Notes: generated by a model from the letters alone, not told the origin. A DNA stretch of 42,719 bases from Patescibacteria group bacterium (GCA_038056635.1 JBBUFE010000001.1:7686-50404), one strand, 5' to 3'. Counted from the first letter of the stretch, positions 10,179 through 24,534 are shown. Translations and numbers: made by a program.

Positions 10179-10240
10179 CTTCTAGGAATATTGTCTTTTG
10201 CTTTTCTAGCAGCTAGAAGCTAGTCCCTAGCAACTATCTT
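10157..10240. repeat. CTAG-heptamer hairpin element (empty form)
   Basis: The left arm is GCTTCTA GCTTCTA GTAGCTA GCTTCTA (10157-10184), followed by a 21-nt spacer/loop. The right arm is CTAGCAG CTAGAAG CTAGTCC CTAGCAA CTATCTT (10206-10240). It covers the stop codons of both convergent genes. Confidence 0.8.
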
Positions 10241-10560
10241 GACGACCCCATCATTGAAATTGAAATACCGGGCAAAACATAAATCGGCACTGGCAGAACG
10301 AGGCAAAAATAGGGGACGCTCGTCAGCCCCAAAAGCCACTGACCACCACTCGTTGGCGGACCGTTCTGATATGTCCGCGTCGCGGGTGTCCAGACATACA
10401 AACCCGCGTTCGGAGGGCCAATCGCAGCCAAAATAGCTACGTTAAAACAAGGAAACACAAAACTGGTCTGCCCGCCGAAAGGTGCGGCATATGCGGAGTT
10501 TGGCACGCTGAAAAGAAGGGCGCCACACAGAACAACGACCGATACGAGACGGTTGGACAT
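10234..10560 (-). CDS. small secreted protein (signal peptide), unknown function
   Basis: The ATG at 10560 gives MSNRLVSVVVLCGALLFSVPNSAYA followed by a mature ~83-aa Gly/Pro-rich hydrophobic protein. It is divergent from the T4SS-like block. Confidence 0.5.
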   Translation of the reverse strand: MSNRLVSVVVLCGALLFSVPNSAYAAPFGGQTSFVFPCFNVAILAAIGPPNAGLYVWTPATRTYQNGPPTSGGQWLLGLTSVPYFCLVLPVPIYVLPGISISMMGSSR

Positions 10561-10725
10561 GTTTTGTATTCTAACACCACATATTGCTGGCACCGGGCAT
10601 GTCAACAATAGTCAACGGCCGTATTGAATCGTTGATATGTTTTGCCCCGCATATGCAATACCTTTCCATGGCTTGTTTAAGAATCATTCTATCTTGTATT
10701 GGAACAGCGCTACGCGCTGTTGCCA

Positions 10726-10760
10726 CTATACGCTATACGCTATACGCTATACGCTATGCC
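10726..10760 (+). repeat. (CTATACG)x4 plus degenerate fifth unit containing the start codon
   Basis: CTATACG occurs at 10726, 10733, 10740 and 10747. CTATGCC at 10754-10760 contains the ATG at 10756. Confidence 0.85.
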
Positions 10761-11712
10761 ATGGCTTCGCGCATATCCTCGGTCGGCTCTAATCGCTCTC
10801 GCGGTGACTCTCATTGTTATTGGCAGTCTTGTTATCGCAAGAAAATCCCCAATGGAAACAAGCCCCTCATATTCAACCGTCTCTGAAGAAAGCGCTTTTG
10901 TTGAATCACCGTTTCCTTATGATACCGCGCCCATAGCAGAGGAGGGTGTCTTGAAGCTCATTCCGCCATCACTTATGCAGTCAGTAGTAAGCAGTCCTCC
11001 CTTTTCATATTCTTCTCCTTTTATTTCTCGGGAGGCCAAACCTGCTCCCAGCGTCGTTCCATCAAACACATCTTCTGCGGAAGTGAAAAAAACTCCCGAA
11101 ATTACAGACGGCGCGAATTTTTGGAACGCATATTCGCTGACACCTCGCGGACTGATAAGCACTTCAATAGCAATAAAAACCCGCACCCCCGAAGAAAAAG
11201 CTCTTTTTGATTACGGCAACGAGCTCGGCTTATATATAGGAGCATTCGAGGACGCCCATCAAAATACGGTTTCTTCTTTTCAGGATTTCTTTTCGGCTCG
11301 GGGCGCTACGCCTTCTGGAGAATTAGGGGGATTAAAGGCGGGATCGCAACCAAAGCCCGCGCCGCCTCCAGCGGACGGAGGCCTTTCCGCTATTGAAAGA
11401 ATCACATCAACGGCAAGAGATTACTCGCGGCTCGGAGATACTATCGCGAACATGAGTTCTGTTCCAAAAGACGCACAACGTCTCCATCTGACCCTCTCCC
11501 AAGGTTACGGCGAGATTGGCGCGGGTCTTTCCGCAATCGTCCAACCGAATGGCGGCGACCTGGTAAAAGCTGTCCTTGCCTACAATGAATCCGCAGATAA
11601 ATTCATCAAAAATTTTGTGTCTCTTGCAGAATTTTTCTCCGCTCGCGGCATCAAATTCTCTTCGAGCGACCCTGGAAATATTTTTTCTTTCAGCGCAACA
11701 GGCGGTCTATAG
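10756..11712 (+). CDS. membrane-anchored protein, unknown function (paralogue of next gene)
   Basis: The ATG at 10756 gives MPWLRAYPRSALIALAVTLIVIGSLVIA (TM anchor). A Ser/Pro-rich linker and a helical C-terminal domain follow. A canonical terminator follows the gene. Confidence 0.6.
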   Translation: MPWLRAYPRSALIALAVTLIVIGSLVIARKSPMETSPSYSTVSEESAFVESPFPYDTAPIAEEGVLKLIPPSLMQSVVSSPPFSYSSPFISREAKPAPSVVPSNTSSAEVKKTPEITDGANFWNAYSLTPRGLISTSIAIKTRTPEEKALFDYGNELGLYIGAFEDAHQNTVSSFQDFFSARGATPSGELGGLKAGSQPKPAPPPADGGLSAIERITSTARDYSRLGDTIANMSSVPKDAQRLHLTLSQGYGEIGAGLSAIVQPNGGDLVKAVLAYNESADKFIKNFVSLAEFFSARGIKFSSSDPGNIFSFSATGGL

Positions 11713-11768
11713 ACTCTGCACGCCAAGTCAAGGGGAGTCCTTGATTTTGTTTTGGCTGAATTTTCTCC

Positions 11769-11805
11769 GCGTCGAAACTGTGGTCAGTTTCGACGCGATT
11801 TTTGC
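11769..11805 (+). terminator. Rho-independent terminator
   Basis: GCGTCGAAACT (11769-11779) pairs with AGTTTCGACGC (11786-11796) around a 6-nt loop. GATTTTTGCTTCTT follows. Confidence 0.8.
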
Positions 11806-11866
11806 TTCTTGGAATACCAAGAAAAAAATCGCCTATTGCCTAAGTGCCCATTGTCTGCTTATTGGA

Positions 11867-11875
11867 TGTTATAAT
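11867..11875 (+). promoter_or_regulatory. extended -10 promoter element (TGtTATAAT)
   Basis: TG at 11867-11868 and TATAAT at 11870-11875 lie 6 nt before the in-frame GTG at 11882. This is consistent with a leaderless transcript. Confidence 0.4.
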
Positions 11876-11881
11876 TTTCGT

Positions 11882-12709
11882 GTGGAAAACCGACGCATCT
11901 ACTCGAGCGGGCTTTCTAGCATTGCCACCACGGCTGTACTTTCCGTTGCGGTTCTCTTATCGGCTCTCGTCTGGCAAGTAACCACGACCATAGACACAAA
12001 AAAGGCATCCTTGCGCGTAGTTTCCGATTATTCTAAGGAGGGGCGGGCTACACCAACGCAAGAAAGTACTTCGGACCAATTGCAAGCAGGGACCGTTGCG
12101 AGCGCAACAAACACAAAACCATATGACTCGAATGACTTGTCGCAAATAGGCGATAACGCCTTCGGAAAACTCATCGGAACGTACGTTGCATTAAAACAAT
12201 CTGGCGCATACACAGCATCTGCAGGCGAGCGCGTCGCACAAGACATTGCTACATCTTTAACCGCGCCCGTAGCGTATGCGCCGATTTTAGAAAGCGACAT
12301 TAAGGCTGACTCTGACACGTCTTATAAACGGATGCTTCAGTACCGGAGTGATATGCGCACTGCATACGAACCGCTTCTGCAAAACAAAGAGCCGGAGTTT
12401 GCTGTTTTCGCCCGATATGTTGAGACTGGCGACAAAAGCAATCTGGCCACGCTATCTCTGTATGCGGAAAGGTACAAGAAGACGGCTACAAACGCGAAAA
12501 ATGCCACCGTGCCGAAAGACACTATTTCCTACCATGTGAGAATTGCGAACTCACTTCTACAGTTCGCGGCGGTACTTGAACAAATGGTCAAGTACGCAGA
12601 TAACTCGATGGCATCTCTCGCGCTTTTGCGTACATACAACAGTGCAGAGCTTGAGGTGCTTACCTCTTTCAACTCCATCGCGACATTTCAGAGAAACAAA
12701 ACGCCATGA
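11882..12709 (+). CDS. membrane-anchored protein, unknown function
   Basis: GTG at 11882 is the first ATG/GTG/TTG start codon after the terminator. The TM anchor is LSSIATTAVLSVAVLLSALVW. The C-terminal helical domain has a TYNSAE...F motif resembling AYNESAD...F in the preceding protein. The stop overlaps the next start (ATGA). Confidence 0.5.
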   Translation: MENRRIYSSGLSSIATTAVLSVAVLLSALVWQVTTTIDTKKASLRVVSDYSKEGRATPTQESTSDQLQAGTVASATNTKPYDSNDLSQIGDNAFGKLIGTYVALKQSGAYTASAGERVAQDIATSLTAPVAYAPILESDIKADSDTSYKRMLQYRSDMRTAYEPLLQNKEPEFAVFARYVETGDKSNLATLSLYAERYKKTATNAKNATVPKDTISYHVRIANSLLQFAAVLEQMVKYADNSMASLALLRTYNSAELEVLTSFNSIATFQRNKTP

Positions 12710-14451
12710 CAGATAAAAGAACACTCAAAAAAAATATCGCGATATGGATTCTTGCTCTTGGAATTTTCGTTTTGGCGCCGTTTTATGCCTTTGCCGAGCA
12801 CGAGCAACAGTGTGTAACTAGCACAGCAGCGGGAGTTTCGACCGATACTTGTTTCCGCAAGCCCCACATCACTATCGAGCCAGCAGGACCACAAAATGTA
12901 ACGATGGAGTCCACCTTTTCCGAACCAAAAGGTTTCAGCCGGCAAGGTATTTTTGGATGCAGTCAAACCGGTTCTTACTCCATGAGCGTCGGAACACTCG
13001 GGGCAATAGGTGGAGCATTCGTCCCGGTGAACGACGCGGCAGTTACTCTAAACACCGGGTACCTGGTTTTCAAAGAATGCGTCCTGCGCCCGGTAATCAA
13101 TCGCCAGAGTGAAAGCGAGACGGCGAGCATTCTAAAACAGACAACCGAAGGTTTTCTCACTGGACGAAACGGACAGCCATTGTTTCCCGTAGACCTGGAG
13201 AAAGACAAGCTGGAACGCAGTGATGCGGTTGTCGAGCGTGCTCTTGCCACAGGCCGTATTGATGCTGTGAGCCCCGCGTTTCGGGACGACGTAAAACGCG
13301 CAATTCAGCGCGACTACAATGTGAAAACAAGAAACTCTAACGACTCCCTCAAGTGTTCGTATGCTGGCTCTCCGGCAAAACTCACTGCCGTATTACGGGG
13401 CAAACAATTTAATGGATTCCTCGATGTGCTTATGCTGGCCGACCCCAACTGCATTCCTCTTTACGCAGCCAAAAACGCGCAAAATCTGGTAATGCGCGAC
13501 GTTGCCACCGAACAAAACGACATGCTGACTCGGCTCGGATGGAACAGCGGCGTGTACGATGTTGAGAAGGTTAATGCCGACGGCACTAGGCAAGTGCTAA
13601 CTCCGGGATTCTTGCTCGCAGACACGATAAAGCAACAGCTCGGTTCCGGCTTCCGTAAGCAGGAAAGCGCCAACGACATAGACCAAATGGTCGGGAACCT
13701 CTTTTCCAGAATCAGCGTTTCTATTTTTGCAAGTTTCGGGGGACTCCAAGGTCTTGTGCAGAAGAACGCAGGCACTCCGTCATACTTGGACCAGGTTGTG
13801 CTTGATTCATCCGAGGGTCTTCGCGATAGCGCAATCAATGCCGCAATTCAGATTCTTGTCGCCGCAAGACAAGTGGGAGCGCAGTATCTGGAAGCGGAGA
13901 ACGGGACTGCCTCGGTTCTTATACGCGCAATAGCACAACTGCGAGGAGCGGAAAACACGTGCTGGAACATCATCGTTCCCAAAGTGAAATCTTACGCCGA
14001 GGCCGGAGCCTGCGCGAAAAATTCTGACGGAGGTCAAACGTGCTCCGGTTCTTTCGCCTTGAAAATCGCGACCTCAACCTCATTCTCGCAGGGCGTGATT
14101 GACTCGCAAATTGCGCCGCTTGCAACCACGACCGCCCTTAAAATCAATGCCACCTCCCAAGCAGTGGCTGCCGTGGATAAATTGATACTGGATGTAACTA
14201 ATTCCAAAGCGCCCAATGTCCAGAGCACGGCGCTTCAGCAATTAGACGCGCTTGTCGCCGGAAAAGCGCTCCCAAGCCAATACGATTTGAAAGCGGCGGA
14301 ACAGCAACTGCAGGATGTAAATAATTCCGTCTCAACCCTCGTAACGGACACCATAAAAGCGTGGGGAGACAGCCCGGACACGAATATCGGCTGGTGCAAT
14401 GTAAATAATGAGAACGTAATACCGATGTGGGCGAACAAATGGAAGATATGA
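12706..14451 (+). CDS. large secreted protein, unknown function (T4SS-like locus)
   Basis: 581 aa with the signal peptide IAIWILALGIFVLAPFYAFA. There are no further TM helices. Both ends have ATGA start/stop overlaps with the neighbouring genes. Confidence 0.65.
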   Translation: MTDKRTLKKNIAIWILALGIFVLAPFYAFAEHEQQCVTSTAAGVSTDTCFRKPHITIEPAGPQNVTMESTFSEPKGFSRQGIFGCSQTGSYSMSVGTLGAIGGAFVPVNDAAVTLNTGYLVFKECVLRPVINRQSESETASILKQTTEGFLTGRNGQPLFPVDLEKDKLERSDAVVERALATGRIDAVSPAFRDDVKRAIQRDYNVKTRNSNDSLKCSYAGSPAKLTAVLRGKQFNGFLDVLMLADPNCIPLYAAKNAQNLVMRDVATEQNDMLTRLGWNSGVYDVEKVNADGTRQVLTPGFLLADTIKQQLGSGFRKQESANDIDQMVGNLFSRISVSIFASFGGLQGLVQKNAGTPSYLDQVVLDSSEGLRDSAINAAIQILVAARQVGAQYLEAENGTASVLIRAIAQLRGAENTCWNIIVPKVKSYAEAGACAKNSDGGQTCSGSFALKIATSTSFSQGVIDSQIAPLATTTALKINATSQAVAAVDKLILDVTNSKAPNVQSTALQQLDALVAGKALPSQYDLKAAEQQLQDVNNSVSTLVTDTIKAWGDSPDTNIGWCNVNNENVIPMWANKWKI

Positions 14452-16910
14452 GTATGAAAACTCCAACACAGGGTCGCTTCGGTATTTTATCCATCCCCTC
14501 AATTAAAAAATTAGCGCCAGGTTTGGTGTTGCTTTCTATTGTCTTGTCGGGGGTTCTTATGCCAGTTTCTTTTTCGGATAAGAATTATGGTCCCGTTGGA
14601 ACAAGGGTTGGTATGTTTACGAAACTTCCCGTGGCGATGGCGGCCGAGGATATCATAAAAAAAGACGGTAAGTGGTACTATGGCGGGAATTATTACGAAA
14701 ATTATACAGACGCAGTAAGCGCACGGGGAGAGAGAGCAAGTTTTGATGGCGGTAACCCTGATATTGGGGGTGCTACATTCCTAGAAGGCCTCTCCCCAGA
14801 ACAAAGATCGGAGCTTGCTGTGGCGCACGACCCAAAACCCATATCATGCTCTGGAGTACTCAACTTCTGGTCAACTCCCCTTTCTTGCCTCTGGCGCTCG
14901 CTCATCGCCGCGGTGAGTTCAATTCTAATTACTGTCGCCGCCTGGGTCCTTGCGGTAGCAGGCATACTCTTTAACTGGTCGGTCGTGAATAGCATCATTC
15001 TTTTTAAGGCCTCGATATTCGAACCAATAAAGGATGCGATAAACGTGGGATGGACCGCATTCCGAGATTTATCAAACATAGCAATAATCGGGATGTTCAC
15101 ATTTATCGCAATCTCAATAATTTTAGGGAACAAGGAGTACGGGAAGAAAAGGCTAATCGCGCGGGTGCTTGTGATAGCAGTCCTTATTAACTTCTCCCTG
15201 CTTTTCACAAAAATTATAATTGATGCCTCTAATTTCACTGCGGCGCAATTCTACGCCGCAACCACCGGCCAAACGATACGAGATGCCCTGGCGACAAGTC
15301 AAACGGCGACCAATGCCTCTACGGGATTAAGCCTGACAAGCGGCGGGTACGCGCAATCCGGAATCGCCGGAGCGTTTGTCGGATTTTTGGGGGTTACAGG
15401 CGCAGGAGATACATTCAATGCTGTGAGGGAAGGCGCCGACAATATGGATAGCGGCTGGATGGCACTCGTGCATGCGATCTTTGCAGCAACCTTTCTATTA
15501 GGCGCGGCGATAGTCCTTCTTTACGGCTCATTCCTCCTGATTTCTCGCGCCGTGCTTCTTATCTTTCTTATGCTTGTATCCGCGCTGGCGTTCGCTTCGC
15601 ACCTTGTCCCAAAACTTTCCGACGGTACCTACGGCTGGAGCGCATGGTGGAAATCGCTTTTGGGGAACGCAGTTCTTGCTCCGATTCTCATGGTTTTTCT
15701 CTGGATTACGCTCCAAATTTCAGCAAAATTAGCGGAGCAAGGAGGCACCCTGGGCAACCTGATATCCGGGAAAGCAAGCGGGGCTGACATAAACTCGCTA
15801 TTCGTCTACCTGATAGTTCTCGGCTTGCTTTTCGCGTCGTTCAAGCTTGCGAGCAAGTTCTCATCAACCATCGGCGGGTTCAATTATGCCCAAATGGCGA
15901 CGGCTCTTCCATTTGCCGCGGCGTCTCGCTTGGCAGCTATGGGATTGCGCAACGCGCCATGGCTCGGCGGCCGCGGAGCCGCAATCCGCTCGATGCAGTT
16001 AGAGGATGAGATTAAGAGGGAAAGGGCAAGTGAGAGGTACCTCGGAGGCGACACAAAGGCGATGGCAGGACTCATGCGCCAAAAGGATAGGGCCGATTGG
16101 CGCGCGAAGAGCACATATGACCCAATGAACACAAGGCTTGCTCAAACATTCGCTAAAAGCCTAGGTCTCTCCGGTATGTTCACGGATAAAACAAAAACCA
16201 ATTTCGCTGAAATCGCCAAGGCTCGCGCCGCTGCGGCGGCAGAAAAGGCAACAATGGCTAGCGCTACAAGAACTGACGCAGAAAAATTGGTTGCAGACCA
16301 GAGAGCCAGTCTGGTCCGCGACCGTGACGCCAAAGATGAAAGCCTTAGACTTCAGAGGCAAACAGCGAAAGAAGCAATCCGAAGTGGGGGTCACGGGGAA
16401 GCCCTTGAAGAGGCCCAAAAAACCATGCAGGAGGCACAAAAGGCAATCGTGGAAGCAAAAAAAGGCCTGGCGAATAATACCGGGAACCGACAAGTTCACA
16501 ACGACACTATCACTGCGGAGACCGAGCGAATTAAAAAAGCCGAGGTTGCTGTAAAGGAGAGTCGGGGTCATATCGATAGAATTATGCAGCCAGTTGTTGG
16601 TGCAGAGAAAAAGCTGGACGAGGCAGAAAAAAAGATTGAAAAGCTCAATGCCCATGTCACGAACATTGTAAACAAATCGGCAGAGGGAGCGGTCGAGGTA
16701 GCTGAAAAACTTGCTCATGGGCGAATTTCTAACCTCTTACCGCGCATGTTCGGCGAGCAACCGGAAAATGACCACACCGCGAAACTGGCGCGCAGGCTCG
16801 CCGAAAAGAGGATTAAGTTTCAAGTGGTCAAGGAGAAACGACTTGCTGAAGACGAAATGTTAGCGGACGCGGGAGTAATAGTGCCGGGAGCACAGCCTAA
16901 AAAACCATAA
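14448..16910 (+). CDS. polytopic membrane protein, VirB6/TrbL-like, with coiled-coil tail
   Basis: About 820 aa with an N-terminal anchor, at least 6 further hydrophobic helices (e.g. GWMALVHAIFAATFLLGAAIVLLYGSFLLI) and a ~250-aa K/E/A-rich C-terminal region. The VirB6-like assignment rests on topology and context only. Confidence 0.55.
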   Translation: MSMKTPTQGRFGILSIPSIKKLAPGLVLLSIVLSGVLMPVSFSDKNYGPVGTRVGMFTKLPVAMAAEDIIKKDGKWYYGGNYYENYTDAVSARGERASFDGGNPDIGGATFLEGLSPEQRSELAVAHDPKPISCSGVLNFWSTPLSCLWRSLIAAVSSILITVAAWVLAVAGILFNWSVVNSIILFKASIFEPIKDAINVGWTAFRDLSNIAIIGMFTFIAISIILGNKEYGKKRLIARVLVIAVLINFSLLFTKIIIDASNFTAAQFYAATTGQTIRDALATSQTATNASTGLSLTSGGYAQSGIAGAFVGFLGVTGAGDTFNAVREGADNMDSGWMALVHAIFAATFLLGAAIVLLYGSFLLISRAVLLIFLMLVSALAFASHLVPKLSDGTYGWSAWWKSLLGNAVLAPILMVFLWITLQISAKLAEQGGTLGNLISGKASGADINSLFVYLIVLGLLFASFKLASKFSSTIGGFNYAQMATALPFAAASRLAAMGLRNAPWLGGRGAAIRSMQLEDEIKRERASERYLGGDTKAMAGLMRQKDRADWRAKSTYDPMNTRLAQTFAKSLGLSGMFTDKTKTNFAEIAKARAAAAAEKATMASATRTDAEKLVADQRASLVRDRDAKDESLRLQRQTAKEAIRSGGHGEALEEAQKTMQEAQKAIVEAKKGLANNTGNRQVHNDTITAETERIKKAEVAVKESRGHIDRIMQPVVGAEKKLDEAEKKIEKLNAHVTNIVNKSAEGAVEVAEKLAHGRISNLLPRMFGEQPENDHTAKLARRLAEKRIKFQVVKEKRLAEDEMLADAGVIVPGAQPKKP

Positions 16911-16911
16911 T

Positions 16912-17568
16912 ATGGCAATCGCTGCAAATGAAGCCGATGTGAACGAACAAGAGCTCGCCAAGCGGCTTGCGGAGCGATTCGTGCAGTTGCCAAAAGTCGT
17001 TCAGAACGCGATTACCTCCGCCGAAATCGAAAAACGGCTGCGCAAACTTGCTGATACGCATAAATTACATCTGGACCAATGGGAACTGCTTGAGAACGAA
17101 GTGCGCCTAACCGTTTACGGCTTCCAACAAACGGAAGATTTGTCTAAAAATATCGAGAATGAAGTCGGAGTCTCCAAGGAAACTGCCGACGCGCTTACAT
17201 CTGATATATCGCAAAATATTTTCGAGCCCATCCGCGAAGAGCTTGAGCGCGAGCTAGAGTCTCCGGACGCAAAAGAGAAAAAGGTTGGCGAGCTTGACGA
17301 GGTCCGCTCGGAAATACTCGGAGATAAGCCGGCAGCCCCTATACGAGATACGAGAGACGAGAGACGAGATACGATTGTCGCTCCCCCCATACCAGATACA
17401 CGATACGCGATACCCGATACTATTCCTGTCCTGCCTTCTACCCCGCCTCCGCCGCCAAGCACCGAAAAATCTATCCGCGCGCCGCTCTCATCTTCGTACA
17501 CATCTCAAGCGCCAAGCCACGAACGCATCGCCACAGAAGGAGACCCGTATCGCGAACCGACGGCTTAG
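16912..17568 (+). CDS. acidic, Pro-rich soluble protein, unknown function
   Basis: 218-aa ORF. Residues encoded by 17341-17424 come from 12 in-phase heptamer units. The stop codon lies in a CTAG array. Confidence 0.45.
   Translation: MAIAANEADVNEQELAKRLAERFVQLPKVVQNAITSAEIEKRLRKLADTHKLHLDQWELLENEVRLTVYGFQQTEDLSKNIENEVGVSKETADALTSDISQNIFEPIREELERELESPDAKEKKVGELDEVRSEILGDKPAAPIRDTRDERRDTIVAPPIPDTRYAIPDTIPVLPSTPPPPPSTEKSIRAPLSSSYTSQAPSHERIATEGDPYREPTA
17341..17424 (+). repeat. 12 in-phase heptamer units inside an ORF
   Basis: The units are ATACGAG ATACGAG AGACGAG AGACGAG ATACGAT TGTCGCT CCCCCCA TACCAGA TACACGA TACGCGA TACCCGA TACTATT. Confidence 0.8.
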
Positions 17569-18055
17569 CTTCTAGCTTCTAGGGACTAGCTTCTAGGTAT
17601 AACCGCGTAACTCATAGCTTCTAGAAAATATGACAGAGATAATCAAGTCGCACAAAGATTTAATAGTTTGGCAAAAGTCCGTACAACTTTCTCTCATAAT
17701 TTACCGCATAACTAGTGATTTCCCTCCGCGAGAAATGTACGCTCTTTCTTCACAAATGCGACGAGCAGCTGTTTCAATTCCGTCCAATATCGCAGAAGGA
17801 AAATCTCGTGGAACAAGAAAAGATTTCGCGCATTTTCTGCACATGTCATATGGTTCCGCTGCTGAACTGGAAACGCAGTTACTAATCGCCAAACAATTGA
17901 ATTTCTGCGAGGATGAGAAATTTAACGAAACGAATTCACTGCTATCCGAAGTGAGCAAGATGTTGCGTGTTATGATAGAGAAACTGGAGACTAGTTAACT
18001 AGCGGCTGCTTTTGTTTTGCCTAGAAGCTAGAAGCTGGTCCCTAGCAGCTAATCC
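17563..18055 (+). mobile_element. inverted-repeat-flanked cassette carrying a four-helix-bundle gene
   Basis: The left arm is GCTTCTA GCTTCTA GGGACTA GCTTCTA (17568-17595). The right arm is CTAGAAG CTAGAAG CTGGTCC CTAGCAG CTAATCC (18021-18055). CTAGGGACTAGCTTCTAG in the left arm pairs at 17 of 18 positions with CTAGAAGCTGGTCCCTAG in the right arm. Confidence 0.45.
17630..17998 (+). CDS. four-helix-bundle protein (23S rRNA intervening-sequence protein / Avd-like family)
   Basis: 122 aa. The pattern DLIVWQKS...L...IY.IT..FP..E.YALSSQMRRAAVSIPSNIAEG...R....F..FL..S.GS..ELETQL is the hallmark of this family. Confidence 0.85.
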   Translation: MTEIIKSHKDLIVWQKSVQLSLIIYRITSDFPPREMYALSSQMRRAAVSIPSNIAEGKSRGTRKDFAHFLHMSYGSAAELETQLLIAKQLNFCEDEKFNETNSLLSEVSKMLRVMIEKLETS

Positions 18056-18057
18056 AT

Positions 18058-18537
18058 ATGCAATTCCAAGTCCCGCAGTTTATTGAAGTTGAAGATAAGA
18101 TTTTCGGTCCTCTCACCTTCAGACAATTCGTTTATTTGGCGGGAGGGGCAGGGGCATGCTATGTGCTTTGGCGAATTTTCCCGTCCTACATCGCGGCTCC
18201 TCTTATTTTGGGCACTGGCGGACTGGCTGTTGCTCTTGCTTTCTTGCAATACAACGGCAGACCTTTTATAAGCGCCCTTGAGCACGGATTCTACTTCCTA
18301 ATAAAGACCAAGCTCTATCTGTGGAGCAATAAGACTGCGCAAATTAAGAAAGGGGTCCGCGATGAGGAGGCCGAAAACCGCGTCATTAGGAAACCGCTTG
18401 CATATATTCCAAAACTATCAGGCAGCAAACTGCATGAACTCGCATGGAGCTTGGACATCAAGGAACGCATCGCCGCCGGCGTCGCAAGCGAAGACGAGCT
18501 TGGGTCCGACTCGGTGATGCCGATGAGCAGGCAATAG
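18058..18537 (+). CDS. PrgI-family (VirB3-like) T4SS membrane protein
   Basis: MQFQVPQFIEVEDKIFGPLTFRQFVYLAGGAGACYVLW is followed by a second hydrophobic helix, the typical PrgI N-terminal signature. The gene lies just upstream of virB4. Confidence 0.7.
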   Translation: MQFQVPQFIEVEDKIFGPLTFRQFVYLAGGAGACYVLWRIFPSYIAAPLILGTGGLAVALAFLQYNGRPFISALEHGFYFLIKTKLYLWSNKTAQIKKGVRDEEAENRVIRKPLAYIPKLSGSKLHELAWSLDIKERIAAGVASEDELGSDSVMPMSRQ

Positions 18538-18660: not shown

Positions 18661-18669
18661 TTATTCTAT

Positions 18670-19341
18670 ATGCCGAATCTTAAAACCAACGCCCCAAGCA
18701 GCAAATCCACGCAGGAATTCGTCCCTGTGCGCGAAGTGCGAGACGGAACTATTGTTTTAAAAGATGGCGGGCTCCGCGCCGTGCTTCTTGCCTCCTCGAT
18801 AAACTTCGCGCTTAAGTCGGAGGACGAGCAGACGGCATTTATTTCCCAGTTTCAGAACTTTCTGAACTCGCTCGATTTTTCAGTGCAAATTTTCGTAGAG
18901 TCCCGCATGCTTGATATTCGTCCCTACGTAGCAACATTGGAAGCGGCATTCAAAGAACAGCTCGACGACTTGATGCGAATTCAGATTCGCGAGTATATAG
19001 AGTTCGTCAGAAGTTTCGCCGAGTCGGCGAACATCATGACTAAAAACTTCTTCGTGGTCGTGCCATACTCTCCGACGGCAATCGGCAGGGTAACCGGGCA
19101 TTCATCAATCTTTCCGTGGGGTCAAAAGAAAGGGGGCGCCTCCGAAGCAGAGAGCCGGTCGTTCGGCGAGCAAGTGTCCCAGCTTGAACAGCGCGTGGCG
19201 ATTGTCCAGCAAGGGCTAGTGCGGACAGGCGTACGCACGGTGCAGCTGGGAACCGAGGAAGCGATAGAGCTTTTGTATAAATTGTTCAACCCCGGCGAGG
19301 AGGGAAAGCCGATGCCGTTGGAAACAGCTTCTAGAGGCTAG
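18670..19341 (+). CDS. T4SS-associated protein resembling the N-terminal domain of Gram-positive VirB4/TraE-type ATPases
   Basis: 223 aa. The pattern VPVREVRDGTIVLKDGGLRAVLLASSINFALKSEDEQTAFISQFQNFLNSLDFSVQIFV is recalled from memory of VirB4-like N-termini and was not searched. The last 4 codons and the stop lie in a CTAG array. Confidence 0.5.
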   Translation: MPNLKTNAPSSKSTQEFVPVREVRDGTIVLKDGGLRAVLLASSINFALKSEDEQTAFISQFQNFLNSLDFSVQIFVESRMLDIRPYVATLEAAFKEQLDDLMRIQIREYIEFVRSFAESANIMTKNFFVVVPYSPTAIGRVTGHSSIFPWGQKKGGASEAESRSFGEQVSQLEQRVAIVQQGLVRTGVRTVQLGTEEAIELLYKLFNPGEEGKPMPLETASRG

Positions 19342-19417
19342 CTTCTAGCTGCTAGAAAATACAAATACCATGCACCACATTACAAACCTAGAACCTAGAA
19401 GCTAGTCCCTAGAAGCT
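19327..19417. repeat. CTAG-heptamer hairpin element (empty form) between the two VirB4-related ORFs
   Basis: The left arm is GCTTCTA GAGGCTA GCTTCTA GCTGCTA (19327-19354), followed by a 33-nt loop. The right arm is CTAGAAC CTAGAAG CTAGTCC CTAGAAG CT (19388-19417). It runs straight into the ATG at 19418. Confidence 0.8.
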
Positions 19418-21358
19418 ATGAGTTTACTCGACATATTCAAAAAGAAAGACACCCGCAGTTCAACCGCGGCCGTTCTTCCTATTTTGCCAGAGGAAATTTA
19501 TGAGGCGGGGATACTTGACCTTCAAGATGTCATCGCTCCGCACGCGCTTAAAATAAGCTCGCGCGAACTCGATTTGGGGGAGAAAATTGCGCGCACATTT
19601 TTCGTCATATCATATCCGCGCTTTCTCACAACCGGCTGGTTCGCTCCAATAATTAACATCGACAAAGTCCTTGATATTTCAATATTCATCCATCCGATGG
19701 ATACAAATGAAATGCTGCGCAAGTTTCAGAAAAAAGTCGCCGAGGTGCAGAGCCAGATATCAACGCGCGAACAAAAAGGCATGGTGCGCGACCCGATGCT
19801 CGACACCGCCTACTCCGACCTTGAGCGCCTGCGCGATTCGCTCCAGCAAGCGCAGGAGCGCGTCTTTGAGGTAGGGTTGTATCTCACGATTTACGGAAAC
19901 ACGCGCGAGGAGATTGATAAAATTGAATCCGAAGTGCGCTCAATCCTTGAATCTCGCCTCGTATATATTCGCCCGGCTCTTTTCCAGCAAGAGCAAGGTT
20001 TTCGCAGCGTCCTACCCCTTGCAAACGATGAATTGAATGTGCACACCAAATTGAATTCCGCTCCGCTTTCATCAATTTTCCCTTTTATATCATTCGACCT
20101 CACTTCCGACCGAGGCATTCTTTACGGCATCAATAGGCATAATTCCTCACTCGTACTCTTCGACCGCTTCTCTCTGGAAAATTACAACTCGGTTACATTT
20201 GCCAAGTCCGGCGCGGGGAAAAGCTATGGGACGAAGCTGGAAATCTTGCGCTCTCTTATGTTCGATGTGGAAGTTATCGTCATCGACCCGGAGCGCGAAT
20301 ATGAATATCTTGCAGAAACTGTCGGCGGCCGGTATTTCAACATCTCGCTTTCTTCGGAACACCACATTAATCCTTTCGACCTCGCCATCCCGCGCGAAGA
20401 CGAAAATCCGGCCGACGTATTGCGAAGCAACATCATTACTCTAGTCGGCTTGTTTAGAATAATGTTGGGCGGGCTTACGCCCGAGGAAGACGCCGTAATT
20501 GATAGAGCAATCACTGAAACATACGCCCTCAAGGACATCACGGCGGAAGCAAACTTCGCATTAATTGAGCCACCCCTTTTGTCCGACTTCGAACTTGTTC
20601 TTTCTGGAATGGAGGGGAGCGATTCGCTAGTTGCCCGGCTTTCCAAATACACAAAAGGCACATGGGCCGGCTTTATGAACCGGCCGACGAACGTGGACAT
20701 GAATAAGAAGTTGGTTGTCTTTTCTGTGCGCGACATGGAAGACGACTTGAAGCCGGTTGCAATGTACATCATCACGCATCACATCTGGAACACGGTGCGC
20801 AAAGAACTTCGCAAGCGCCTCCTCATCATCGACGAGGCGTGGTGGATGATGCGCTCTGCAGACACGGCATCGTTCCTATTCTCAATCGCTAAACGCGGAA
20901 GAAAATATTTCCTCGGAATCTCCACCATCACGCAAGACGTTTCAGACTTCTTGAACTCGCCGTATGGAATACCGATGATTACAAACTCTTCTATTCAATT
21001 GCTTTTGCGGCAATCTCCGACATCTGTTGACCTTGTGCAACAAACTTTCAAGTTGTCAGACGAAGAGAAATATCTGCTTCTTGAATCAGACGTGGGGGAG
21101 GGAATTTTCTTCGCGGGGTTGAAACACGTCGCGATTAAAATAATCGCTTCTTATACGGAAGACCAGATAATCACCTCCGACCCATCCCAAATTCTCGCTA
21201 TCCGCAAAGCGAAGAAGGACCTCGCGGATTCGCACGATGCTGATAATGCGGAGGAACAATTACTGCGAGTTATTGCGCCGGACAAGCCAGCAGTCAAACC
21301 GGCAATGCCAACGCCTGCCGCGTTAACAGAGGACGCGGCCTCCGGTACGGCAAAATAA
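19418..21358 (+). CDS. virB4: VirB4-family type IV secretion ATPase
   Basis: 646 aa with Walker A FAKSGAGKSYG and Walker B RLLIIDEAWWMM. An upstream FFVISYPRFLTTGWFAPI region is typical of the CagE/TrbE/VirB4 domain. Confidence 0.85.
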   Translation: MSLLDIFKKKDTRSSTAAVLPILPEEIYEAGILDLQDVIAPHALKISSRELDLGEKIARTFFVISYPRFLTTGWFAPIINIDKVLDISIFIHPMDTNEMLRKFQKKVAEVQSQISTREQKGMVRDPMLDTAYSDLERLRDSLQQAQERVFEVGLYLTIYGNTREEIDKIESEVRSILESRLVYIRPALFQQEQGFRSVLPLANDELNVHTKLNSAPLSSIFPFISFDLTSDRGILYGINRHNSSLVLFDRFSLENYNSVTFAKSGAGKSYGTKLEILRSLMFDVEVIVIDPEREYEYLAETVGGRYFNISLSSEHHINPFDLAIPREDENPADVLRSNIITLVGLFRIMLGGLTPEEDAVIDRAITETYALKDITAEANFALIEPPLLSDFELVLSGMEGSDSLVARLSKYTKGTWAGFMNRPTNVDMNKKLVVFSVRDMEDDLKPVAMYIITHHIWNTVRKELRKRLLIIDEAWWMMRSADTASFLFSIAKRGRKYFLGISTITQDVSDFLNSPYGIPMITNSSIQLLLRQSPTSVDLVQQTFKLSDEEKYLLLESDVGEGIFFAGLKHVAIKIIASYTEDQIITSDPSQILAIRKAKKDLADSHDADNAEEQLLRVIAPDKPAVKPAMPTPAALTEDAASGTAK

Positions 21359-22392
21359 TGAATACTTTGCTGACAAAAAACGGTTTTTTTGCTACCGCCT
21401 TTGCAATGGTTGTTTTATTTGGAACTTTGTTTTTTGCAACAAGCCCAGCTTCCGCCCAATTTTTGAGCGGGAGAGGGGCGCGCATCTTTCTTTCCTTGAG
21501 TCCGGAACATCCTCAACCCGGGGAGAATGTGCGCATCACAGCTGACAGTTCGCTTATAGACCTCTCCCGGAGCGACATAGAGTGGTCTGTTGACGACGAG
21601 ATTATTACGCGGAGCTCTGGACAAAAGGAGGCAAGCATAACCGCCGGCCCATTGGGCTCCGAAGCGCGCGTGTCTGTCGTGGCGCGTTCATTAGACGGGA
21701 CACTCGCATCCGGAGAAGCCTTTATCCGCCCTGCAGAGATTGATATCTTATGGGAATCGAGTTCGTACGTTCCGCCTTTTTACCGAGGGCGAGCGCTTCC
21801 CTCGGCGGGAACTTTCGTTCGCGCACATGCAATCGTTCGCTTCAAACCTGAACGCGAAACACAGATATCCGGGAGCGACATTATTTTCACATGGAAGCGC
21901 AACGGTTCTGTCGTACAATCTGCTTCCGGAAGAGGAAGGTCGTCCGCGCTCCTCTCCGCGCCAACGCTTTTCGGCGTTGACACTATAGAAGTTAATGCGG
22001 TCACAATCGATGGCGCGCTTGAGGGGCAAGAGTCGGTGCGCATCCCGTCTATTGAGCCCGTACTTACGCTCTATAAAGACCACCCGTTATTTGGAATCAT
22101 GTACCATCAGGCGCTTACTGATACAACATTCGTCCCAGATATAGAAATGGCATTTGCGGCAGTGCCCTATTTTGCCGAGGCTAAAAGCCCGGACGACCCG
22201 CGCCTCATTTATTCCTGGCGCATCAATGGAAATGATGTTGCCGCGGACGAATCGAAGAGAAGCTCGCTCACGATTAATGCTGATAAATCGGCTGGCGTCG
22301 CTCAAATTGGTATTTCTCTCAAACACGCGACTAATTGGTTCATGCAATCTTCCGGTGCATGGGAAATTACTTTCGGCTCTCCGATTAAATAG
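21358..22392 (+). CDS. secreted protein, unknown function
   Basis: 344 aa with the signal peptide FFATAFAMVVLFGTLFFATSPASA. The start overlaps the virB4 stop (TAATG). Confidence 0.6.
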   Translation: MNTLLTKNGFFATAFAMVVLFGTLFFATSPASAQFLSGRGARIFLSLSPEHPQPGENVRITADSSLIDLSRSDIEWSVDDEIITRSSGQKEASITAGPLGSEARVSVVARSLDGTLASGEAFIRPAEIDILWESSSYVPPFYRGRALPSAGTFVRAHAIVRFKPERETQISGSDIIFTWKRNGSVVQSASGRGRSSALLSAPTLFGVDTIEVNAVTIDGALEGQESVRIPSIEPVLTLYKDHPLFGIMYHQALTDTTFVPDIEMAFAAVPYFAEAKSPDDPRLIYSWRINGNDVAADESKRSSLTINADKSAGVAQIGISLKHATNWFMQSSGAWEITFGSPIK

Positions 22393-22394
22393 CT

Positions 22395-23630
22395 ATGCCT
22401 GTAAACAAAAACATCTTAAAATATCCCCTCGTTGCTATTGTGGCGCTTCTTCTCGCCGGACTCGCCGCATGGTATTTCTTTCTTGACAAACAAGCGCAAA
22501 CTATTACATCGGGCGACTCCGCGCGAGGACTCGGGACAAGCGCTCCATCATTTGGAAGCGCTATCGGAAGCACTTATAGCAACATCGTCTCTGGCATTAC
22601 AGCTTTAGTGGGAGGAGCGGGCACAGAGCCAGCGAGCAAAATTCCTCCGCAGTTATGGCGCGTTACCAAGACCCCTGTTGCAGGAATGGGGTTCGTCGGA
22701 AGCGCCACCTCATCCAAGCTATATTTTGCCGAACGGTCCACGGGATATATTTTAGAAGCCGACCCGAAAACAGGGGCGCTCGTACGCCTTACGAACAAGC
22801 TCTTCCCCAAGACCTACGAGGCGGTATTCAGTCGGGACGGCTCTGTCGTTCTCCGCTCTATTAACGAAGACGGGGGTGTAGATAGTTTCGCCGGTTCTTT
22901 AGCGAGCACTTCAGTGCTTGCGGGAAACTATCTGACGCGCAACATCCGCGCGATTGTGCCTGACCCTGAAACACATGGGCTTTTATACATGGTGAAAAAT
23001 GATACCGGGGAGGGAGTCGCTGTGCGTTCATCGTGGAGCGGCGCCAAACCAAAAATTGTCTTTACATCGCCCCTGTCTAGCTGGAAACTCACCTCGCTGG
23101 ATGACGGGCGCACATTTTTCACTTTACAGCCAGCTGACAATGTGCCCGGTTTTGCGTACGAATTGAAAAGTAGCGGGTCGCTCGTGCCGGAAATACAGGA
23201 TGTTCCCGGGCTAACGTTTTTGCCGCGCGCTTCCTCAACGGCAATCCTATATGGAGCGTCGGCTGGCGGGACTCTGAATCTTTTCGCAAAAGCGAGCGAT
23301 AAAGGGCAAATTTTCCCTCTCTCCATAAGAACGGTCGCTGACAAATGCGTGTGGGACCTTTCAAATAAGCAACTGATTGTATACTGCGCTGTTCCGCAGT
23401 TCGTTGTTTCAAATACATTCCTCAATGACTGGTATCGAGGGGTCACACACACGAGCGATTCGTGGTGGCGCGCAGACGCGAACGACGGCACTGTGGAATT
23501 AGTCTTTTCGCCGAGCGAGGGAGATGAATCTCTCGACGTGGAAAATCCCGTCATAGACGCGAGCGGAGAGCATATCGCTTTCATGAACGCGGTGGACAAG
23601 ACTCTGTGGCTTTTGCGAATATCTAAATAA
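22395..23630 (+). CDS. membrane-anchored protein, unknown function
   Basis: 411 aa with the N-terminal TM helix YPLVAIVALLLAGLAAWYFFL. The remainder is beta-rich-looking with no motif I can name. Confidence 0.55.
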   Translation: MPVNKNILKYPLVAIVALLLAGLAAWYFFLDKQAQTITSGDSARGLGTSAPSFGSAIGSTYSNIVSGITALVGGAGTEPASKIPPQLWRVTKTPVAGMGFVGSATSSKLYFAERSTGYILEADPKTGALVRLTNKLFPKTYEAVFSRDGSVVLRSINEDGGVDSFAGSLASTSVLAGNYLTRNIRAIVPDPETHGLLYMVKNDTGEGVAVRSSWSGAKPKIVFTSPLSSWKLTSLDDGRTFFTLQPADNVPGFAYELKSSGSLVPEIQDVPGLTFLPRASSTAILYGASAGGTLNLFAKASDKGQIFPLSIRTVADKCVWDLSNKQLIVYCAVPQFVVSNTFLNDWYRGVTHTSDSWWRADANDGTVELVFSPSEGDESLDVENPVIDASGEHIAFMNAVDKTLWLLRISK

Positions 23631-23631
23631 T

Positions 23632-24534
23632 ATGAAAAGGGTTCTCTCGCTTGCGATGGCATATGTAATTCTTCCTGCGTTACTGCTCACTCTTTTTGCC
23701 GTTCTTATTGCTCCGTATTTTGCGCACGCGGCAGAAGAATGTAAGGCAGGATTCTGTCCGCTTGCGAGCGTTGACAACTCCCCTAAACTTCGCGCTCTCT
23801 ATGACAGCGACCAGAACCTAGTTACATACATAAACTCGCTTTTCAAAATCGCCATCTCCGTTGGAGCAATCATTGCTGTCATACGCCTTGGAATTGCCGG
23901 CTACGCGTATATGGGAGGAGATATGTGGGGCACCAAACAGAAAGCTAAGGAAATTATTACCGATGTCTTTTTCGGGCTCCTGCTTCTTTTGTCCATATGG
24001 ATTATTCTCTACCAGATAAATCCAAACCTGCTCAATTTAAATATAGCCTTTCCAGGCGCTGTAGCCGCCCCTCCCCCCTCTGCCGCTTTTCCCAGGCCTT
24101 CGGCGCCAAGAAACCAGGCCGCTCTTGATAAAATTTTGGAGGACGAAGACGTAAAGAGGGCGACCCTTAGGGGCTCCGGAATCAGAATAAATAAAAATCC
24201 TTGTTATAAAGTCACGGACACAGAGTGCACTAATGTCGGACTGCTCGGCGTGAGCGCCGTCACGGGTCTTCAGAACCTCTATCGAGACTGCCGCTGTTCC
24301 GTTGTGGTTTCCGGCGGGACAGAGTGGTTTAGGCACGGAAAAAATACCGCGCATGGACCCAATTCTCCAGTCGTTGATATTTTGAAAGACAAAGAAGACA
24401 AAGGGGGGCTGGATAGATATATCCGGACCAACGGAACAATAACAGGGCGGGATTCCCTAGGCAGGGCAATCTATTCTCTGGGCGAAGGCAGATTCTTGGA
24501 TGAAGATTCCGCGCATTGGCACGTAATGTTCTAG
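23632..24534 (+). CDS. VirB2/TrbC-like pilin domain fused to a putative LAS/M15-type zinc peptidase domain
   Basis: A signal peptide is followed by two hydrophobic helices (IAISVGAIIAVIRLGIAGYAYM and VFFGLLLLLSIWIILYQ), as in T4SS pilins. A Pro-rich linker follows. The C-terminal domain has SGG...H-x7-D (AHGPNSPVVD) and a terminal HWH (HxH). Confidence 0.5.
   Translation: MKRVLSLAMAYVILPALLLTLFAVLIAPYFAHAAEECKAGFCPLASVDNSPKLRALYDSDQNLVTYINSLFKIAISVGAIIAVIRLGIAGYAYMGGDMWGTKQKAKEIITDVFFGLLLLLSIWIILYQINPNLLNLNIAFPGAVAAPPPSAAFPRPSAPRNQAALDKILEDEDVKRATLRGSGIRINKNPCYKVTDTECTNVGLLGVSAVTGLQNLYRDCRCSVVVSGGTEWFRHGKNTAHGPNSPVVDILKDKEDKGGLDRYIRTNGTITGRDSLGRAIYSLGEGRFLDEDSAHWHVMF

What the first reader, a model, noticed from the sequence alone, without database searches (positions are those of the whole stretch)
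10234..24534. T4SS-like locus with many unknown envelope proteins and no DNA-processing module in view
Recognisable parts:
- A PrgI/VirB3-like protein (18058-18537).
- A VirB4 ATPase (19418-21358) with Walker A and DEAW Walker B motifs.
- An ~820-aa polytopic VirB6/TrbL-like protein with a long K/E/A-rich coiled-coil tail (14448-16910).
- A VirB2-like pilin domain (23632-24534).

The remaining 7-8 genes each carry a signal peptide or a single TM anchor and no motif I can name. They are tightly coupled (ATGA overlaps at 12706 and 14448, TAATG at 21358).

I see no relaxase, VirD4-type coupling ATPase, VirB11, or VirB9/VirB10 equivalents. There is also no integrase, and the block sits next to the origin region among core genes.

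Inference: this is a chromosomal, possibly non-conjugative VirB4-based envelope machine (cell-cell contact, uptake or effector delivery) rather than an ICE.
Basis: partly seen in the sequence, partly recalled or inferred. Interest (0 to 1): 0.75.

Follow-up and report, generated by a model that had tools for sequence, protein, structure and literature searches.

The report
Known-type chromosomal secretion machine of Patescibacteria

Summary
VirB4, PrgI/VirB3 and a VirB2-like pilin pass curated thresholds. The VirB6-like assignment is supported only through orthologues.

One "unknown" gene (18670-19341) is the detached N-terminal domain of VirB4 (TrsD-like). Another (17630-17998) is a 23S-rRNA-IVP-family gene sitting inside a hairpin cassette.

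No relaxase, coupling ATPase, VirB11 or integrase occurs in the window or in 10 kb beyond either end. GC content of the block equals that of the flanks.

The gene order ksgA-[block]-jag-yidC-rnpA-dnaA-dnaN is colinear in every comparable related genome (43/43). VirB4 is more conserved than DnaA. This is therefore a vertically inherited core locus, not an ICE.

Exactly this system was published in 2025 (PMC12102498), and its Saccharibacteria counterpart is essential for epibiotic growth (PMC10633639).

Added here:
- Tentative folds for two accessory proteins (3x Ig-like; TolB-like propeller).
- An elongated all-helical secreted protein with no structural match.
- A pilin whose outward-facing extension is hypervariable between species. 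In this window it is a widespread Cys/His-rich, probably metal-dependent domain.

Verdict: ordinary member of a known kind; modest interest.

The parts
10234..10560 (-). Small secreted protein (108 aa from ATG 10560; signal peptide ...SAYA|AP). It is divergent from the block. Membership in the machine is unproven.
   Evidence: Hydrophobic N-terminus. Orthologue at the same place in 22 related loci, median 52% identity. No Pfam or NCBIfam hit.
10756..11712 (+). Bitopic membrane protein (N-terminal TM anchor, 318 aa), a paralogue of the next gene. It is followed by a strong terminator at 11768-11797.
   Evidence: Orthologue alignments begin at M20, so the start is 10756. TM segment. hhalign against the next gene's family: probability 84%, E 7e-6 over the C-terminal 92 columns. 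Terminator with 13 pairs.
11882..12709 (+). Bitopic membrane protein with a helical C-terminal domain. GTG start sits 7 nt after an extended -10 box (TGTTATAAT), so the mRNA is probably leaderless. First gene of a translationally coupled run.
   Evidence: Orthologue alignment, sequence, TM segment. No family hits.
12706..14451 (+). Secreted 581-aa protein, elongated and all-alpha, with conserved Cys. Fold unassigned.
   Evidence: Signal peptide. 280 homologues, all 'hypothetical', in Kaiserbacteria/Paceibacteria. AF2 pLDDT 77 with helices 112-152, 360-433, 459-499 and 525-555. Foldseek against PDB: best E 0.46. PDB profile search found nothing.
14448..16910 (+). Extended VirB6-like polytopic membrane protein with a 300-aa K/E/A-rich C-terminal tail.
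   Evidence: 7 hydrophobic segments. 4/26 orthologues hit TrbL/VirB6 PF04610, best E 6.5e-7, though the window protein itself does not. Present in 63 of 80 loci.
16912..17568 (+). Cytoplasmic 218-aa protein: conserved N-terminal helical domain, Pro-rich linker and an invariant C-terminal DPYRE motif. Role unknown.
   Evidence: No TM segment. Invariant D211 P212 Y213 E215 in 36 orthologues. No Pfam or PDB hit. Always lies between VirB6-like and PrgI.
17562..18055 (+). Hairpin cassette: 42-nt CTAG-rich inverted arms enclosing a 23S_rRNA_IVP family gene (17630-17998). An insertion in the operon, not a T4SS subunit.
   Evidence: PF05635, E 4e-40. Inverted arms. The same bracketed arrangement occurs in 8 other genomes and at the window's second copy.
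18058..18537 (+). VirB3/PrgI-family membrane protein.
   Evidence: PF12666, E 1.3e-10, above the cut-off. Present in 76/80 loci, median 47% identity.
18670..19341 (+). TrsD-like protein, which is the separately encoded N-terminal domain of VirB4.
   Evidence: NCBIfam: NF045975 VirB4_plasma E 7.5e-10 (model 98-233), NF041427 TrsD E 6.5e-6, NF045971 E 5.5e-5 (model 2-118). All are below the full-length cut-offs, as expected for a fragment. Present in 78/80 loci, median 60% identity.
19326..19422 (+). Empty CTAG-rich hairpin between the TrsD-like gene and virB4. Its right arm ends 1 nt before the virB4 ATG.
   Evidence: RNA fold -38.2 kcal/mol, z -7.4, 0/200 shuffles as good.
19418..21358 (+). 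VirB4 ATPase of the monoderm (MPF_FATA / CD1110) type, lacking its own N-terminal domain.
   Evidence: NF045971, 357.8 bits (cut-off 325), model positions 185-733 only. 4ag5, E 6e-39. Walker A and B motifs. 74-95% identical in the best 80 of 588 related genomes.
21358..22392 (+). Secreted protein, probably three Ig-like/beta-sandwich repeats (tentative).
   Evidence: Signal peptide. Invariant W76/W179/W287 at about 105-aa spacing. Profile against PDB: phage T4 Hoc Ig-like domains, E 3e-4. Present in 78/80 loci.
22395..23630 (+). Membrane-anchored protein with a TolB-like beta-propeller (tentative).
   Evidence: N-terminal TM segment. Profile against PDB: TolB, E 1.2e-4. PD40 repeat in 3/66 orthologues.
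23632..24534 (+). VirB2-like pilin module (signal peptide plus two TM helices, aa 1-135), Pro-rich linker, and a 140-aa Cys/His-rich extracytoplasmic domain (candidate metal-dependent hydrolase).
   Evidence: PF18895. The C-domain family has 402 representatives, mostly at the C-terminus of proteins of about 300 aa. 13/16 close hits carry PF18895. Invariant C191 C199 C220 E231 H235 H241 D249 H295 H297. AF2 pLDDT 92-96 over this domain. Only weak fold hints: M15A peptidase, E 0.018.

Best explanation
This is the chromosomal type IV secretion system characteristic of Patescibacteria, in a Kaiserbacteria-like member of the Paceibacteria. It descends from the conjugation machinery of monoderm bacteria but has been uncoupled from DNA processing.

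Shown here:
- A membrane platform made of a VirB4 ATPase (split into a TrsD-like N-domain and the ATPase body), a VirB3/PrgI protein and an extended VirB6-like polytopic protein.
- A VirB2-like pilin.
- Six secreted or membrane-anchored accessory proteins, conserved in place next to the replication origin.

Inferred, from established T4SS mechanism:
- The VirB4 hexamer docks on PrgI/VirB6 and extracts pilin subunits from the membrane to build a pilus or tube through the cell wall.
- The Ig-like, propeller and elongated helical proteins form the wall-spanning scaffold, in place of the missing VirB8-like and outer-membrane parts.
- The pilin's outward-facing variable domain meets the host surface.

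Most likely role: a contact organelle at the epibiont-host interface that is needed for growth and moves proteins or other macromolecules, not conjugative DNA. The direction of transport and the substrate are unknown.
For: Family assignments:
- Curated-threshold matches for VirB4, PrgI and the pilin.
- The TrsD-like fragment matches VirB4 N-terminal model positions, while VirB4 matches only positions 185-733.
- VirB6 is supported through orthologues.
- The nearest plasmid VirB4s are all from monoderms at 27-37% identity.
- A Clostridium plasmid relative keeps PrgI-VirB4-cell-wall hydrolase but also has MobC, relaxase and VirD4, which are absent here.

Chromosomal, vertically inherited locus:
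- No relaxase, T4CP, VirB11 or integrase in the window or 10 kb beyond it.
- GC content equals the flanks.
- Strict colinearity across related species.
- VirB4 median identity is 78% against DnaA 56% in the same loci, and higher in 55/57.

Literature:
- The same architecture and origin-proximal position are reported for Paceibacteria (PMC12102498).
- The Saccharibacteria counterpart and its pilins are essential for epibiotic growth and lack coupling and relaxase proteins (PMC10633639).
- Tubular structures that may be T4SS pili were seen at a parasite-host interface (bioRxiv 10.64898/2026.06.21.733656).
Against: - No experiment exists for this organism or for any Paceibacteria T4SS.
- The rest of the genome was not available, so a distant T4CP or relaxase cannot be excluded. 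T4CP homologues are common elsewhere in Patescibacteria genomes.
- The VirB6 assignment is indirect.
- The Ig-like and propeller assignments rest on E-values of about 1e-4.
- No VirB8-like or clear VirB1-like component was identified.
- The comparison 'VirB4 more conserved than DnaA' is biased, because the loci were chosen by VirB4 similarity.
- Whether a pilus is actually made is unknown, and a 140-aa domain on every pilin subunit may be hard to pack into a filament.
Confidence: 0.8

Rival explanations
1. Import machine. The system works in reverse, like the ComB or Ced systems. It takes up host nucleic acids or other macromolecules to feed an organism that cannot make nucleotides. The pilin-borne enzyme domains open the host envelope.
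For: - No T4CP or relaxase is nearby.
- There is a weak partial match of VirB4 to the archaeal DNA importer CedB, E 1.9e-8.
- Orthologous pilin proteins in other species carry hydrolase domains: 3D E 3e-6, Peptidase_S8 E 6e-18, CHAP E 3.5e-3.
- A 2026 preprint links VirB4 to macromolecule transfer in an RNA-feeding parasite.
Against: - No import substrate or nucleic-acid-binding component was identified in the block.
- The CedB match is a generic ATPase-core match, far below its cut-off.
- In S. epibionticum, loss of comEC abolishes competence but not viability, so DNA uptake as such is not the essential role (PMC12857230).
- The window's own pilin domain is not proven to be an enzyme.
Confidence: 0.25
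2. Effector exporter. The system is a T4CP-independent protein secretion system, as in Bordetella Ptl or Brucella VirB. It delivers proteins to the host cell or its surface.
For: - T4CP-less protein-secreting T4SSs exist (PMC12102498).
- Wang et al. suggest export of proteins for the Saccharibacteria system.
- Several Sec-signal proteins are encoded in the block. This fits the two-step secretion known for Ptl (my own knowledge).
Against: No candidate effector with a recognisable activity lies in or next to the block. The secreted proteins are conserved in place like structural parts.
Confidence: 0.25
3. Integrated conjugative element, or a decayed remnant of one.
For: The core genes descend from monoderm conjugation systems.
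Against: - No relaxase, T4CP, integrase, tRNA or bracketing repeats.
- No compositional difference from the flanks.
- Identical chromosomal position in all comparable relatives.
- Strong purifying selection on VirB4, TrsD and PrgI.
Confidence: 0.03

Closest known systems
Patescibacteria-clade T4SS (Quinonero-Coronel et al. 2025, PMC12102498), Paceibacteria arrangement
   Same: - VirB4 of MPF_FATA ancestry, with a TrsD homologue next to it.
- PrgI-type VirB3, a VirB6 homologue and a VirB2-like pilin near virB4.
- No relaxase.
- Neighbourhood of dnaA, dnaN, rnpA and ksgA.
   Different: Nothing essential differs. Details not mentioned in the parts of that paper I read:
- The outward-facing extra domain(s) of the pilin-position protein vary between species, and here the domain is a Cys/His-rich family.
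- There are tentative folds for two of the grey 'unknown' neighbours.
- IVP hairpin cassettes sit in the operon's spacers.
T4SS of Ca. Southlakia epibionticum (SEML1_0006-0019; Wang et al. 2023, PMC10633639)
   Same: Chromosomal, resembles Gram-positive conjugative systems, carries pilin genes inside the cluster, and has no recognisable coupling or relaxase protein. It is essential for epibiotic growth, which was tested there and not here.
   Different: - That system has an array of six divergent pilins and cell-wall hydrolases just downstream of virB4. This window has a single pilin-module gene with a fused domain, and Ig-like and propeller genes downstream of virB4.
- The two organisms belong to different classes (Saccharimonadia against Paceibacteria).
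Conjugative MPF_FATA systems of Bacillota (CTn2/CD1110 type; example pSXP-169_2 of Clostridium perfringens; pGO1 for TrsD)
   Same: The VirB4 family is CD1110 (about 33% identity), and the PrgI gene lies directly upstream of virB4.
   Different: - The plasmid has MobC, relaxase, a VirD4-like T4CP and an SLT transglycosylase, its VirB4 is one full-length protein, and it has no pilin.
- The window has none of the DNA-processing genes, a split VirB4, and a VirB2-like pilin.
T4CP-less effector T4SSs (Bordetella Ptl, Brucella VirB)
   Same: Both work without a coupling protein.
   Different: Those are diderm MPF_T systems with VirB7/9/10 and VirB11. None of these is present here.

Membership tests
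Patescibacteria-clade T4SS | VirB4 ATPase related to monoderm MPF_FATA VirB4 | tested here: met
   NF045971 (CD1110 family), 357.8 bits against a cut-off of 325. The best plasmid relatives are all monoderm.
Patescibacteria-clade T4SS | VirB4 falls inside the monophyletic Patescibacteria clade | tested here: inconclusive
   No tree was built. 588 relatives were found, and the best 80 are all Patescibacteria MAGs at 74-95% identity. The best plasmid VirB4 is only 36.5% identical. This is consistent with the clade but is not a phylogeny.
Patescibacteria-clade T4SS | TrsD homologue associated with virB4 | tested here: met
   18670-19341 matches TrsD (E 6.5e-6) and VirB4 N-terminal regions (E 7.5e-10) and lies directly upstream of virB4.
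Patescibacteria-clade T4SS | VirB3/PrgI homologue near virB4 | tested here: met
   PF12666, E 1.3e-10, above the cut-off.
Patescibacteria-clade T4SS | VirB6 homologue near virB4 | tested here: inconclusive
   The window protein has no Pfam hit. 4 of 26 orthologues hit TrbL/VirB6, best E 6.5e-7. Polytopic topology fits. The PDB profile search found no VirB6.
Patescibacteria-clade T4SS | VirB2-like pilin near virB4 | tested here: met
   PF18895, 29.7 bits against a cut-off of 26.6. Signal peptide plus two TM helices.
Patescibacteria-clade T4SS | No relaxase associated; chromosomal, origin-proximal in Paceibacteria | tested here: met
   (no relaxase). dnaA is 2.4 kb downstream. Position conserved.
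Patescibacteria-clade T4SS | Required for epibiotic growth | not testable with these tools
   Shown only for S. epibionticum (PMC10633639).
Conjugative T4SS / ICE | Relaxase (MOB) and oriT | tested here: not met
   No relaxase domain in any ORF of the window or in 10 kb beyond it. The rest of the genome was not seen.
Conjugative T4SS / ICE | VirD4/TcpA-type coupling ATPase | tested here: not met
   None in about 62 kb. The rest of the genome was not seen.
Conjugative T4SS / ICE | Integrase and attachment repeats at the borders; variable presence among relatives | tested here: not met
   No integrase, no tRNA and no bracketing direct repeats. The block is present and colinear in all comparable relatives.
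LAS / M15-type zinc peptidase (for the pilin C-terminal domain) | H-x(n)-D ... H-x-H metal site on the characteristic alpha/beta fold | tested here: inconclusive
   Invariant H241, D249, H295 and H297, plus E231 and H235. No Pfam or PDB sequence hit. Foldseek against PDB found nothing. BFVD 'Peptidase M15A, C-terminal' at E 0.018, probability 0.6.

The most novel reading that the evidence does not exclude
The single VirB2-like pilin of this locus is a modular carrier. Its membrane hairpin is constant, but the outward-facing extra domain(s) (C-terminal in most, N-terminal in L034) differ from species to species: none, Cys-rich, coiled-coil, 3D, subtilase, CHAP-like, or, as here, a widespread Cys/His-rich putative metallohydrolase. 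The T4SS would then display or deliver host-specific enzymes on a pilus, to breach the host envelope and feed the epibiont. That would make the pilin itself the effector and the determinant of host range.
Probability: 0.2. Interest if true: 0.8.

Novelty: new member of a known kind. Interest (0 to 1): 0.3.

Why it matters
Patescibacteria make up a large share of bacterial diversity and depend on hosts. Their T4SS is one of the few machines shown to be essential for that lifestyle, and its substrate is unknown. This locus adds nothing to the principle.

The comparative data do give testable handles:
- A strictly conserved 12-gene set for Paceibacteria.
- A split VirB4.
- A species-variable pilin head domain, which may explain host specificity or how the host wall is opened.

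Tried and rejected
- The PDB sequence/profile searches for the VirB6-like protein, the 581-aa protein, the 218-aa protein and the pilin C-domain gave only coiled-coil noise or nothing.
- The AF2 model of the 581-aa protein had no Foldseek match. I considered a VirB5-like pilus-tip role because of the long helices, but nothing supports it.
- I considered a VirB8-like role for the two bitopic paralogues and set it aside. Their conserved domain looks helical from its sequence and no NTF2-like signal was found.
- The pilin C-domain as an M15/LAS peptidase was not confirmed: no Pfam hit, no PDB fold hit, and only a weak BFVD hint.
- The word-indexed homologue search found no relatives of that domain, while the exhaustive search found 402. 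The first negative was therefore a sensitivity artefact.
- Searches for tRNA genes and Rfam families in the window both returned nothing.
- The promoter scan was below chance. Only one terminator stands out.
- I looked for attachment-site-like repeats bracketing the block. The repeats present are intergenic hairpins inside and outside the block, not borders.

Full report
**What is in the window**

The window is a chromosomal stretch of a Patescibacteria genome from Hainich groundwater. The source is ENA ERZ1292621, a 59.7-kb contig, and NCBI names the product 'AAB830_00120, Patescibacteria group bacterium'.

Around the finding lie core genes:
- Upstream: uvrD/pcrA and ksgA.
- Downstream: jag, yidC, rnpA, dnaA, dnaN and a class A PBP.
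- Further out: ruvABC, polA, purA/purH and a PilB-type ATPase.

There is no tRNA and no Rfam family.

- PrgI/VirB3 (18058-18537) passes Pfam's threshold (PF12666, E 1.3e-10).
- The VirB4 ATPase (19418-21358) passes NCBIfam's threshold for the CD1110 family of monoderm conjugation systems (357.8 bits, cut-off 325). It matches the solved VirB4 C-terminal domain 4ag5 (E 6e-39). Walker A (AKSGAGKS) and Walker B (LLIIDEAW) motifs are present.
- The last gene has a T4SS_pilin domain (PF18895, above threshold) with a signal peptide and two TM helices.
- The 820-aa protein has seven hydrophobic segments and a K/E/A-rich tail. It has no family hit itself, but 4 of 26 orthologues hit TrbL/VirB6, best E 6.5e-7. 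The VirB6 label is therefore reasonable but indirect.
- The ATGA and TAATG gene overlaps are as stated.

**Corrections to the observation**

- The gene just upstream of virB4 (18670-19341) is not an unknown envelope protein. It matches TrsD and the N-terminal 120-230 residues of several VirB4 families, while the VirB4 gene itself matches only model positions 185-733. VirB4 is therefore split into two genes.
- 17630-17998 is a 23S_rRNA_IVP family four-helix-bundle gene (PF05635, E 4e-40).
- 16912-17568 has no TM segment or signal peptide. It has an invariant C-terminal DPYRE motif.
- Two ORFs start later than their longest reading frames, at 10756 and 11882.
- A strong terminator follows the first plus-strand gene.

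**Not an ICE**

- No relaxase, coupling ATPase, VirB11, VirB9/10 or integrase domain occurs in the window or in 10 kb beyond either end.
- Block GC is 0.500 against 0.501 and 0.495 in the flanks.
- No repeats bracket the block.

A scan of one genome per species found 588 relatives of the VirB4. The best 80 are all Patescibacteria MAGs, labelled Kaiserbacteria, Nomurabacteria, Taylorbacteria, Paceibacterota and similar, at 74-95% identity.

In these loci the order is conserved: uvrD-ksgA-(small secreted gene)-two bitopic paralogues-581-aa protein-VirB6-like-218-aa protein-PrgI-TrsD-VirB4-Ig-like-propeller-pilin-jag-yidC-rnpA-dnaA-dnaN.
- PrgI<TrsD<VirB4<next gene holds in 72/72 loci.
- VirB6-like through dnaA holds in 43/43 loci.

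VirB4 (median 78% identity) is more conserved than DnaA (56%) in 55 of 57 loci. This comes with the caveat that the loci were picked by VirB4 similarity.

**It is a published system**

Quinonero-Coronel et al. 2025 (PMC12102498) report the following:
- VirB4 occurs in 2,417 of 3,035 Patescibacteria genomes.
- It forms a monophyletic clade nested in MPF_FATA.
- It is associated with TrsD, PrgI, VirB6 and VirB2-like pilins.
- It almost never has a relaxase.
- In Paceibacteria it lies next to dnaA, dnaN, rnpA and ksgA.

Wang et al. 2023 (PMC10633639) showed that the Saccharibacteria counterpart and its pilins are essential for epibiotic growth and lack coupling and relaxase proteins. A 2025 review treats these systems as a new branch of the T4SS superfamily (PMC12857230).

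**Comparison with true conjugative relatives**

The nearest plasmid-borne VirB4s are from Actinomycetota and Bacillota at 27-37% identity.

A Clostridium perfringens plasmid relative has PrgI-VirB4-SLT transglycosylase in the same order. It also has MobC, relaxase and a VirD4-like protein just upstream, a single full-length VirB4, and no pilin.

**What the unknown genes look like**

- **21358-22392:** a signal peptide and three invariant Trp at about 105-aa spacing. Its profile weakly matches Ig-like domains of phage Hoc (E 3e-4).
- **22395-23630:** membrane-anchored. Its profile weakly matches the TolB propeller (E 1.2e-4), and PD40 repeats occur in 3/66 orthologues.
- **10756-11712 and 11882-12709:** the two bitopic proteins share a C-terminal domain (hhalign 84%, E 7e-6).
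- **12706-14451:** the 581-aa secreted protein is confined to the Kaiserbacteria-like group, with 280 homologues, all hypothetical. It is predicted as an elongated helical bundle (pLDDT 77) and has no structural match.

These fold labels are tentative.

**The pilin gene is the most interesting detail**

Only residues 1-135 are the pilin module. After a Pro-rich linker comes a 140-aa domain.

- An exhaustive search finds this domain in 402 cluster representatives, mostly at the C-terminus of proteins of about 300 aa.
- 13 of 16 close hits carry the pilin domain.
- Four Cys and E231, H235, H241, D249, H295 and H297 are invariant or nearly so.
- The domain is modelled confidently (pLDDT 92-96). 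It has no Pfam or PDB match, and only a weak hint of an M15A peptidase (E 0.018).

At the same position in 62 related species, the pilin-module protein ranges from 134 to 580 aa. Its extensions are unrelated to one another:
- Cys-rich.
- Coiled-coil.
- A 3D domain (E 3e-6).
- A subtilase (E 6e-18, N-terminal to the pilin module).
- A weak CHAP match.

Both pilin termini face outward in VirB2 topology (my knowledge). The machine therefore seems to present a species-specific extracellular head. I did not find this point in the parts of the 2025 paper I read.

**How it most likely works**

Shown: the parts list, its conservation, and the lack of DNA-processing genes nearby.

Inferred from general T4SS mechanism:
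- VirB4, with its detached N-domain, sits on PrgI/VirB6 and drives pilin extraction and polymerisation.
- The secreted and anchored accessory proteins span the wall.
- The pilin head contacts the host.

Whether material goes out (effectors) or comes in (host macromolecules) cannot be decided from sequence.

**Verdict**

This is a genuine, correctly interpreted, but already described kind of system. Interest is modest. It rests on the variable pilin head domain and on the hairpin/IVP cassettes noticed in passing.

Noticed in passing
window 17562-18055 and 39624-40060; L011, L013, L033, L050, L054, L061, L062, L069: Genes of the 23S_rRNA_IVP family (PF05635, about 375 nt) are always bracketed by 23-40-nt inverted repeats with 360-420 nt between the arms, like rRNA intervening sequences but inside mRNA operons. 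The arm sequences differ between genomes. Of 18 such genes in the 80 VirB4 loci, 16 sit in just three spacers of the T4SS operon (218-aa gene|PrgI 8, PrgI|TrsD 3, TrsD|VirB4 5), all on the operon strand.
   Followed up: partly
window 10156-10239, 19326-19422, 33996-34097: 'Empty' CTAG-rich hairpins share the arm motif of the IVP cassette (AGCTTCTAGCTTCTAGGGACTAGCTTCTAGG / complement). The one before virB4 folds at -38 kcal/mol (z -7.4) and ends 1 nt before the start codon. CTAG is otherwise under-represented: 91 occurrences against about 167 expected, about a third of them in these clusters. Possible RNase III or attenuator sites.
   Followed up: partly
window 9267-9402, 25098-25233, 32217-32354, 37139-37268: Four intergenic copies of a paired element: arms CCCCGACACCAAnTTTGGCAT and ATGCCAAAnTTGGTGTnGGGG about 105 nt apart, with a non-conserved interior. 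Each arm is itself partly palindromic (CCAAnnTTGG). This could be a pair of operator sites or a structured RNA.
   Followed up: partly
window 11867-11884: An extended -10 box (TGTTATAAT) lies 7 nt before the GTG start of the 11882 gene. The homologous positions in relatives translate to a conserved 'YT..V' artefact, which suggests a conserved promoter and a leaderless transcript.
   Followed up: no
window 10728-10757, 17348-17425, 26854-26883: Heptamer-like tandem runs (ATACGCT)n lie just before the 10756 start, inside the Pro-rich region of the 218-aa gene, and in the rnpA-dnaA spacer.
   Followed up: no
window 35556-36111; L084 2336-3602: Several type II toxin-antitoxin pairs lie near the origin region: RelB/YafQ in the window, and MazE/Fic and Phd/PemK just upstream of it.
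   Followed up: no
window 6027-7145 (-): A LysM-LysM-M23 peptidase lies 3 kb upstream of the block, separated from it by uvrD and ksgA. The 2025 paper notes M23/LysM domains among VirB1-like candidates, so it could serve the T4SS, but nothing ties it to the block here.
   Followed up: no
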